Source of the DNA: Ptychomitrium polyphyllum
Lineage: Eukaryota
Assembly: GCA_973851085.1 (NCBI GenBank)
Contig: OZ316776.1
Location: forward strand, 9,114,001 to 9,178,000
DNA length: 64,000 nt
Reading direction: 5' to 3'
Below the pieces are notes generated by a model. The model did not search any database and was not told the origin of the DNA. It saw only the letters and a program-made list of their open reading frames with translations. The stretch's first letter is position 1. Each line of letters opens with the position of its first letter. Made by a program: the position numbers and the translations under genes. Positions 37,200-38,165 of this stretch are shown one piece after another.

Positions 37200-38165
37200 G
37201 CACATGTAAATAATTGACACTAAATATTGAGATCAATAGCTTGGCTTTAAAAAACATAGTTTGGGCCTTTCGTGAGGTCATGAGCTATTGTGGTGCGTGT
37301 CAAAATGTCCACAATATGTTCTTGCTCATTTATGCTAGGCTTGTTGGAGGTTTAAAAATTAATAATTCCAAACCATATTAAATCCATGTATTCAAAATGC
37401 AAAAGATCTTAGATGTTACAAATCTTAGCAATGCACCATAGATGCCTCCACATTGTTTACTGATGCAAAAGGTCTTCATCATCTTTAAAAACAATCAAAA
37501 AAAGTAAATGATCATCCAAAATATCATTTACTTTATATGCAATGTGTTGTATGATTTTAACAAGTGTTGTTGTAAACACATGAGATAGAACCAAGTTCTT
37601 TAAAAACCATTAGGCATGAAATACATAAAAATCCAATATTGCAACATCTATAAAGGTTGGAGAATTAAAGAATTGATAAATATAATGACCATCTTCCACT
37701 ACCATCTACCATGTATTCACAAACAACGGCACATTATTAAATATATATAATGGCAAGGTAGATTGGTGTGCAAACCACCGCTACATAAGCCACATTAAGT
37801 CTTTCAATAGACTAAATTGAAGGTCACTTAAACATTAACTGGCACCAATATATAAGTAGCCTTAACAAGGTCATTTGGCAAAGAATAAGCCAATATGGTC
37901 CAATTTCTTCAAATCTTCATCACTTATAAAAGTGACATCGTAAGGATTTTAGTTAAAAATAATTGTAAATGGCAAAACAAAAAAATTACTTAAAATACAA
38001 AACTAATAAACCTGTAGAGGTAATGTCAAGCTGCTTACTTGAATATTAATTTAGTATCTATATAAATATACTGCCTAACCTTGAACTTGGCCTTTATAAA
38101 TGTTGCCAAACTAATACCAATGCCTACAAATAGCTCCATAAGGATAATACCTTTTGTTGGTGGAT
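37200..38165 (-). pseudogene. C5 cytosine DNA methyltransferase domain (decayed) within the retrotransposon polyprotein
   Basis: Motif I ILMELFVGIG (38116-38145), II VRQYIYID, III YDVTFISDEDL, IV LFFAK*PC*G (PC at 37865-37870), VI YIFNNVP (37727-37747), VII/VIII FIDVAILDFYVFHA*WFLKNL, IX KPSINEQEHIVD, X SQAIDL (~37229-37246). The motifs are in canonical order. Confidence 0.8.

What the first reader, a model, noticed from the sequence alone, without database searches (positions are those of the whole stretch)
37200..38165. Compact catalytic-only C5-MTase whose motifs survive in canonical order
Seen: ELFVGIG (FxGxG SAM-binding), YIYID, DVT, AK*PC*G (catalytic PC retained; the flanking TGA and TAA are each one transition from W and Q, giving WPCQG), YIFNNVP (ENV position), a degenerate motif VIII region, then PSINEQEH..SQAIDL, over ~320 codons. 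No intron, BAH, chromo or UBA region is evident, and the motif order is not permuted as in plant DRM. Inference: this is not a captured host MET1/CMT/DRM but a separate lineage, possibly DNMT3-like or of prokaryotic origin, with unknown target specificity.
Basis: partly seen in the sequence, partly recalled or inferred. Interest (0 to 1): 0.75.

Follow-up and report, generated by a model that had tools for sequence, protein, structure and literature searches.

The report
Dead retrotransposon methyltransferase, leaky stop behind
This is a broken copy of a plant jumping gene whose intact relatives carry their own DNA-methylating enzyme in front of a stop codon that ribosomes likely read through only occasionally, so the enzyme would be made in far larger amounts than the element's copying enzyme.

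Summary
The motifs are real (minus strand), but the gene is dead: 16 stops, at least 6 frameshifts, catalytic Glu and motif VIII lost. It is not a stand-alone compact gene. Window 40470-35520 is collinear with intact Ty3/Gypsy elements: Gag-like, protease, C5-methyltransferase, tail, then reverse transcriptase. Profile and fold searches rank DNMT3 first, ahead of DRM, bacterial, DNMT1, CMT and MET1 enzymes. The closest published case is KnitGypsy-Dnmt3 of Klebsormidium. This scan already noted such elements in other moss-like genomes (23 notes).

The added result comes from relatives. In 4 of 4 loci with DNA, ORF1 (Gag-PR-MTase) and ORF2 (RT onward; RT-RH-IN-PHD where complete) share one frame, split by a single TAG followed by CARYYA, the tobamovirus-type readthrough signal. 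Only 5 of 626 TAGs in those loci have it. A predicted stem follows, and ORF2 has no conserved start codon. The methyltransferase is under purifying selection (dN/dS 0.08-0.13). Readthrough and enzyme activity are inferred, not shown, and this copy's own junction is disrupted.

The parts
37170..38160 (-). Decayed DNMT3-like C5 cytosine methyltransferase domain (motifs I, IV, VI, VIII, X positions in canonical order; 16 stops, at least 6 frameshifts)
   Evidence: 66% nt and 156 of 344 codons identical to L002
38470..38835 (-). Decayed aspartic protease (DSG of relatives reads DYG here)
   Evidence: tblastn with P0049 aa 540-730; Asp_protease_2 in relatives, mostly below the curated cut-off
38836..39382 (-). 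Decayed linker between the Gag-like part and the protease
   Evidence: collinear tblastn/tblastx segments
39383..40470 (-). Decayed Gag-like region with zinc-knuckle remnants (one near 39800)
   Evidence: tblastn with P0049/P0050/P0053; zf-CCHC weak in P0062 and P0053
36825..37169 (-). Decayed C-terminal tail of ORF1
   Evidence: blastn/tblastx with L001 and L002
36320..36824 (.). About 500 bp of AT-rich sequence where relatives have ~35 bp holding the TAG-CARYYA junction; the junction cannot be read in this copy
   Evidence: gap in the alignments to L001/L002; part of it is repeated elsewhere in the host's contigs
35520..36319 (-). Decayed N-terminal half of ORF2 (reverse transcriptase), cut off at 35520
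   Evidence: tblastn of L002 ORF2 aa 4-281, E 2.5e-29
35232..35515 (-). Part of an LTR of an unrelated old chromodomain Gypsy element that abuts the cut RT; partner repeat at 20045-20326 (84%)
   Evidence: no remainder of the MTase element found in 16000-20100

Best explanation
The region is a dead copy of the DNMT3-like cytosine methyltransferase domain of a multi-copy Ty3/Gypsy retrotransposon, and in intact relatives this domain ends a Gag-protease-methyltransferase ORF that is separated from the in-frame RT-RNaseH-integrase-PHD ORF by one TAG that is likely read through at low frequency. Shown: the domain order, the decay of this copy, the TAG-CARYYA junction in 4 of 4 loci with DNA, and purifying selection on the domain. 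Inferred mechanism: most ribosomes stop at UAG and make Gag-PR-MTase, and a few percent continue and add RT, RNase H, integrase and PHD. The protease would release the methyltransferase inside the particle at roughly Gag-level amounts, where it would methylate cytosines (most likely CG, by analogy to DNMT3 and SymbioDIRS-Dnmt3) in the new cDNA or at the insertion site. This copy was then likely silenced and eroded by deamination of methylated cytosines, interrupted at its junction, and lost its 3' half.
For: Collinearity of window 40470-36980 with intact 1,250-1,440-aa ORFs (P0049, E 3e-120) and of 36319-35520 with RT. Domains of L002 ORF1 and ORF2. DNMT3 ranks first by profile, Foldseek and VIA-align, Z 28.4, rmsd 2.6, 273 aligned. 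dN/dS 0.08-0.13 in 5 of 6 pairs, one saturated. PCQ in 55, ENV in 60 and HRxR in 59 of 61 stored full-domain proteins, redundant members included. TAG+CARYYA in L001, L002, L003 and L010 although synonymous sites differ at 0.6-0.8 among L002/L003/L010; 5 of 626 TAGs overall. First Met of ORF2 at aa 117 in L002 and L010 and at aa 14 in L003, so no conserved start. 13 of 14 ORF1 proteins of this clade end at the same place. More distant relatives run from MTase into RT without a stop (P0092, P0074 Marchantia, P0102 Sphagnum fallax). A stem starts 12 nt after the stop, z -0.7, -2.8, -3.3, -4.5. Contigs from the runs that hold this window bridge the L002 junction at 80% or more identity with no indel listed. 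Decay spectrum: C>T plus G>A make 215 of 352 differences, the reverse changes 29.
Against: Readthrough and methyltransferase activity are not measured. The Klebsormidium domain gave no methylation in yeast, which the authors call inconclusive (PMC5890265 section 10). In Tca2 an in-frame stop was not read through in a yeast reporter (PMC2194720 abstract and passages). Only four loci, of one clade and with L001/L002 91% identical, show the junction. The stem has no two-sided compensatory change, L001 folds no better than shuffles, and the folding window was chosen after seeing the fold. The junction of this window's copy is unreadable. In one search, 32 variant rows were not shown, so changes in the TAG of host copies are not excluded. 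A pyrimidine-rich run precedes the TAG, as at a splice acceptor.
Confidence: 0.75

Rival explanations
1. Same element and same dead domain, but RT is expressed by splicing to the AG of the TAG (removing the stop) or from an internal promoter, not by readthrough.
For: A pyrimidine-rich run lies before the TAG in all four loci. Tca2 has a junction promoter and showed no readthrough in yeast.
Against: No consensus-like in-frame donor is conserved in the 420 nt upstream; the best conserved GT is in phase 1 and would put ORF2 out of frame. Neither route explains CARYYA. An internal transcript would start at aa 117 in two of three complete ORF2s and lose conserved RT sequence.
Confidence: 0.15
2. 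The methyltransferase domain is kept by selection for a role other than cDNA methylation, such as DNA or RNA binding, acting in trans on host or rival-element chromatin, or self-limiting silencing.
For: No activity was seen for the Klebsormidium domain in yeast; that paper's discussion lists such options. Placement in the presumably abundant ORF fits a high-dose role.
Against: Catalytic PC, ENV and RxR motifs are kept in 55-60 of 61 stored proteins, which argues for catalysis. This rival concerns the target, not the identity.
Confidence: 0.25
3. It is a processed pseudogene of a host DNMT3 or a horizontally acquired bacterial/phage methyltransferase gene lying by chance among repeats.
For: Intronless, AT-rich and outside the two recognisable LTR elements. 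Some relatives are filed under bacterial MAG names (P0048; L010).
Against: It is flanked in order by Gag, protease and RT remnants matching the same intact elements. In the tree it sits inside the retrotransposon clade, with 8 bacterial/phage rows outside (long branch, SH-aLRT 98-99). The MAG-filed L010 is a whole Gypsy element.
Confidence: 0.02

Closest known systems
KnitGypsy-Dnmt3 of Klebsormidium nitens (de Mendoza et al. 2018, PMC5890265; abstract, passages and sections 9-11 read, figures and supplements not seen)
   Same: Intronless, unpermuted Dnmt3-related domain inside the coding region of a Gypsy retrotransposon of a streptophyte, under purifying selection (Ka/Ks < 0.2 there; 0.08-0.13 here).
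   Different: There the domain is described as part of the Pol polyprotein ORF. Here it ends a Gag-PR-MTase ORF that is cut from RT by a TAG-CARYYA stop. Named relatives are in Marchantia, Sphagnum fallax and Closterium; no Klebsormidium-named protein was among the 77 hits. The DIRS-like repeat layout reported there was not established here.
Animal DNMT3A/3B/3C catalytic domain (PDB 6u8p, 4u7t, 2qrv, 8tci)
   Same: Best profile and fold matches over the whole domain.
   Different: About 21-26% identity. No PWWP or ADD domain in the Pfam scans of relatives; a PHD finger sits instead at the end of ORF2.
Type I stop-codon readthrough (UAG-CARYYA) of tobamo-, beny- and pomoviruses (PMC5382211, passages read); in-frame gag/pol or pol/env stops of MuLV, Tca2 and SIRE1 (PMC2194720, passages read)
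   Same: A single in-frame UAG followed by CARYYA, between an upstream structural ORF and the polymerase.
   Different: The stop lies after the protease and a methyltransferase rather than directly after Gag, and readthrough is untested here.

Membership tests
C5 cytosine DNA methyltransferase (PF00145) | Motif I FxGxG and motif IV PC in canonical order | tested here: met
   ELFVGIG 38136 and PC 37870 in the window; PF00145 E 1.8e-13 for L002 ORF1
C5 cytosine DNA methyltransferase (PF00145) | Motif VI ENV and motif VIII RxR intact, open frame (this copy) | tested here: not met
   NNV, HA*, 16 stops and frameshifts; the copy is a pseudogene
C5 cytosine DNA methyltransferase (PF00145) | Catalytic motifs intact in the family | tested here: met
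   PCQ 55, ENV 60, HRxR 59 of 61 stored full-domain proteins, redundant ones included
C5 cytosine DNA methyltransferase (PF00145) | Measured methylation activity and target sequence | not testable with these tools
   needs an assay
DNMT3 clade | Closer to DNMT3 than to DNMT1/MET1/CMT/DRM/bacterial enzymes by profile and fold | tested here: met
   HMM: DNMT3A 1.7e-17, DRM-type 4onj 4.3e-9, DRM2 1e-5, HaeIII 1.3e-7, HhaI 1e-6. Z: DNMT3B 28.4, M.MpeI 25.7, HhaI 22.7, DNMT1 19.0, ZMET2 17.7, MET1 17.4. Run on intact relatives, not on the relic.
DNMT3 clade | Phylogenetic placement with host DNMT3 against MET1, CMT and DRM | tested here: inconclusive
   The tree held only family members and 8 bacterial/phage rows; no host eukaryotic DNMT sequences were returned by the searches
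Ty3/Gypsy LTR retrotransposon | Gag, PR, then RT-RH-IN order | tested here: met
   L002; the window keeps Gag, PR, MT and half of RT in that order
Ty3/Gypsy LTR retrotransposon | Terminal repeats, PBS, target-site duplication | tested here: inconclusive
   No terminal repeat pair within L002 or L003; L010 is assembled as a circle with a 127-nt overlap; ends not found in the window
KnitGypsy-Dnmt3 type | Intronless unpermuted Dnmt3-like domain in a Gypsy coding region under purifying selection | tested here: met
KnitGypsy-Dnmt3 type | Common origin with the Klebsormidium elements; DIRS-like repeat structure | not tested
   no Klebsormidium sequence was obtained
Type I (UAG-CARYYA) readthrough | In-frame UAG followed by CARYYA, downstream ORF without its own start | tested here: met
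   4 of 4 related loci; not readable in the window's copy
Type I (UAG-CARYYA) readthrough | Measured readthrough | not testable with these tools
   needs a reporter assay or proteomics

The most novel reading that the evidence does not exclude
A clade of land-plant Gypsy elements, still intact in some hosts, has moved its gag/pol control point to behind a captured DNMT3: a tobamovirus-type leaky UAG makes the methyltransferase at capsid-level amounts and RT at a few percent. Each particle would then carry many copies of a de novo DNA methyltransferase able to mark its own cDNA and possibly host chromatin.
Probability: 0.5. Interest if true: 0.75.

Novelty: new variant of a known kind. Interest (0 to 1): 0.5.

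Why it matters
Why retrotransposons keep a DNA methyltransferase is an open question since 2018. Intact elements with a defined ORF1/ORF2 junction give testable material and a dosage clue: the enzyme would be made like a structural protein, not like RT. The family also extends the Klebsormidium-type elements into liverwort and moss genomes. The window's own copy is only a fossil, and the family was already noted elsewhere in this scan.

Tried and rejected
Pfam, PDB phmmer and the word-based homologue search found nothing with the relic itself; it is too decayed. No whole genome is held for the window. I first considered the domain as cargo of the neighbouring chromodomain Gypsy element (repeats 35232-35515 and 20045-20326); rejected, because it lies outside them and has its own Gag, PR and RT. 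The missing RT-RH-IN-PHD half was not found in 16000-20100, and no 5' end was found in 40200-43000. No convincing terminal inverted repeat was listed for the ~500-bp junction insert. A CAATTA hexamer at 36334 in the window lies near the expected place but follows ATA, not TAG; I do not count it. Viral contigs gave only 6 distant phage-type methyltransferases and no junction pattern; genome contigs gave one element and 5 distant bacterial hits. No RNA holder was listed. The host could not be named: the atlas look-up of a neighbouring host ORF did not complete. Literature searches with no hit: DNMT3+retrotransposon+Sphagnum, readthrough+CARYYA+retrotransposon, DNMT3+Gypsy+Marchantia+transposable element+methyltransferase domain, Ty3+plant retrotransposon+readthrough+UAG+pol. 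Listings showed no land-plant report by title. A 2003 survey of gag-pol recoding signals that I recall could not be fetched and may already list CARYYA junctions in other retrotransposons. Tree: 23 of 90 candidate rows were dropped for under 240 aa of coverage, including both Closterium proteins.

Full report
Observation. The quoted motifs lie on the minus strand in canonical order, but in more than one frame. The relic alone matched no Pfam family and no PDB sequence. phmmer of the X-read C-terminal 243 codons against 1.84 billion representatives gave 35 relatives, best E 1.9e-17, and 14 of 27 aligned relatives match PF00145. Against intact locus L002 the window domain is 66% identical in DNA and 156 of 344 codons identical in protein, with 16 stops and net frame changes at seven places (two single-base losses near 37421 counted as one). 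The Glu of ENV is lost, and RPR reads HA*. C>T and G>A make up 215 of 352 differences, the reverse changes only 29. They hit 57% of CG, 49% of CHG and 36% of CHH positions, and GC falls from 0.495 to 0.30. This fits decay of a methylated, silenced copy (inference).

Context. Longer relatives are 1,250-1,440-aa ORFs with Gag-like, zinc-knuckle, aspartic protease and C5-MTase parts. tblastn lays them collinearly on window 40470-36980. Intact DNA came from three metagenome contigs (L001-L003) and one contig filed in a cyanobacterial MAG (L010; probably stray plant DNA, inference). L002 has ORF1 976-5082 and ORF2 5086-8226 with RT, RNase H, integrase and PHD. The window continues to match ORF2 from 36319 to 35520 and then runs into a repeat of an unrelated chromodomain Gypsy element; the rest was not found. 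In the two runs that hold the window, 738 and 784 contigs lie on 35400-42600, most of them under 90% alike, so the stretch is a dispersed old repeat. Named relatives come from Marchantia polymorpha, Sphagnum fallax and Closterium. The host is therefore likely a bryophyte (inference; not determined).

Which methyltransferase. A profile of 34 relatives ranks DNMT3A/3C/3B first (1.7e-17 to 3.5e-13), then a DRM-type entry (4onj, 4.3e-9; the DRM label of that entry is recalled), HaeIII, HhaI and DRM2. DNMT1, MET1 and CMT were not listed at E up to 10. An AlphaFold2 model of the L002 domain (mean pLDDT 89.9) matches DNMT3 in all listed Foldseek rows. By VIA-align it gives Z 28.4 (rmsd 2.6, 273 aligned) to DNMT3B, 25.7 to M.MpeI, 22.7 to HhaI, 19.0 to DNMT1, 17.7 to ZMET2 and 17.4 to MET1. 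In a tree of 69 rows the relic falls, on a long branch, within the clade of L001-L003 and L010 (SH-aLRT 98). Host DNMTs were not available for that tree. dN/dS of the domain is 0.08-0.13 in the 5 of 6 pairs that could be computed; RT, RNase H and integrase give 0.01-0.04.

The junction. In 4 of 4 loci with DNA, ORF1 and ORF2 are in one frame, separated by a single TAG followed by CAGTTA (two loci) or CAATCA (two loci). This is the CARYYA signal of type I readthrough (PMC5382211, passages; PMC2194720, passages). Only 5 of 626 TAGs on both strands of these loci have it, four of them the junctions, while synonymous sites among L002, L003 and L010 are near saturation. ORF2 is 1,047 codons in all three complete loci and has no conserved Met before RT. 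Of 14 ORF1 proteins of this clade, 13 end at the homologous position. Among 74 stored proteins ending within 200 aa of motif X, 39 have this end, 14 a sister-clade end and 21 another (redundant members included). More distant relatives run from MTase into RT with no stop, so the stop is likely derived. A predicted 11-bp stem begins 12 nt after the stop in the consensus of the four loci, with one-sided but no two-sided changes; z is -0.7 to -4.5. Against other windows of the same loci, 1 of 48, 5 of 35 and 0 of 44 had as low a z; the window was chosen after seeing the fold. No conserved in-frame consensus splice donor was found, but a pyrimidine-rich run precedes the TAG. The window's copy has ~500 bp of other sequence at this place. 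Other contigs from the same runs bridge the L002 junction without listed indels; among the 40 best-supported differences the only one within the nine junction bases is CAG to CAA, and 32 rows were not shown.

Mechanism. Shown: anatomy, decay, DNMT3 affinity, selection and junction sequence. Inferred: leaky UAG readthrough sets a high Gag-PR-MTase to RT ratio (retroelements need about 20:1 Gag to Pol, PMC2194720), the protease releases the domain, and it methylates cDNA or the insertion site, likely at CG. The last step rests on SymbioDIRS-Dnmt3 activity; the Klebsormidium domain was inactive in yeast (PMC5890265 section 10).

Comparison and novelty. It works like KnitGypsy-Dnmt3 (PMC5890265; abstract, passages, sections 9-11), and common ancestry is untested. 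[quoted passage not shown] My searches found no paper on land-plant copies or on this junction (listings 14, 30, 58, 83), within an open-access library only. This scan had already noted the family in other genomes, and one note describes a TGA between Gag and MTase-Pol in another element, a different position. No note was returned for a CARYYA junction. Verdict: a real, dead member of a retrotransposon-borne DNMT3 family. The new aspect is the stop placed behind the methyltransferase with a readthrough signal, seen in relatives.

Noticed in passing
window 26378-33962 (+): Young Gypsy element with 1.05-kb LTRs 96.5% identical and gag, PR, RT, RH, IN and chromo remnants, nested in an older element; related solo LTRs at 21413-22526 and 24027-25191.
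   Followed up: partly
window 20045-35515 (-): Older chromodomain Gypsy element (gag 35000-34000, integrase, SH3 and chromo near 23300-21100) with short repeats 84% alike; the repeat at 35515 looks 5'-truncated, suggesting a deletion that also removed the 3' half of the MTase element.
   Followed up: partly
window 25723-26069: 31-nt tandem array resembling the sequence of the older element's repeats.
   Followed up: no
window 42717-45218 (-) and about 42190-42050: 834-codon ORF with TIR_2 and a weak AAA_16 domain, followed by a TPR-like remnant; a plant immune-receptor-like gene next to the relic.
   Followed up: no
window 3936-4511, 7769-8287, 10403-10765 (+): Yip1, class I fructose-bisphosphate aldolase and LRR coding pieces.
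   Followed up: no
L001, L002, L003, L010, ORF1 tail: A 14-nt block is invariant in all four loci, synonymous positions included, about 50 nt after the methyltransferase domain, and a second G-rich block is invariant about 25 nt before the stop; both resemble the G-rich tract in the 3' non-coding region of L002 and L003 and may be cis elements.
   Followed up: no
P0065, P0121: Relatives with the methyltransferase placed after RNase H and before integrase, a different position in the polyprotein, on long branches.
   Followed up: partly
P0062, P0067-P0071, P0077: A sister clade whose ORF1 also ends at one conserved place after the methyltransferase; its stop codon and context were not seen because no DNA was fetched.
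   Followed up: partly
P0048, L010: Copies of this plant retrotransposon are filed in bacterial MAG records and named as bacterial DNA methyltransferases, likely binning contamination.
   Followed up: no
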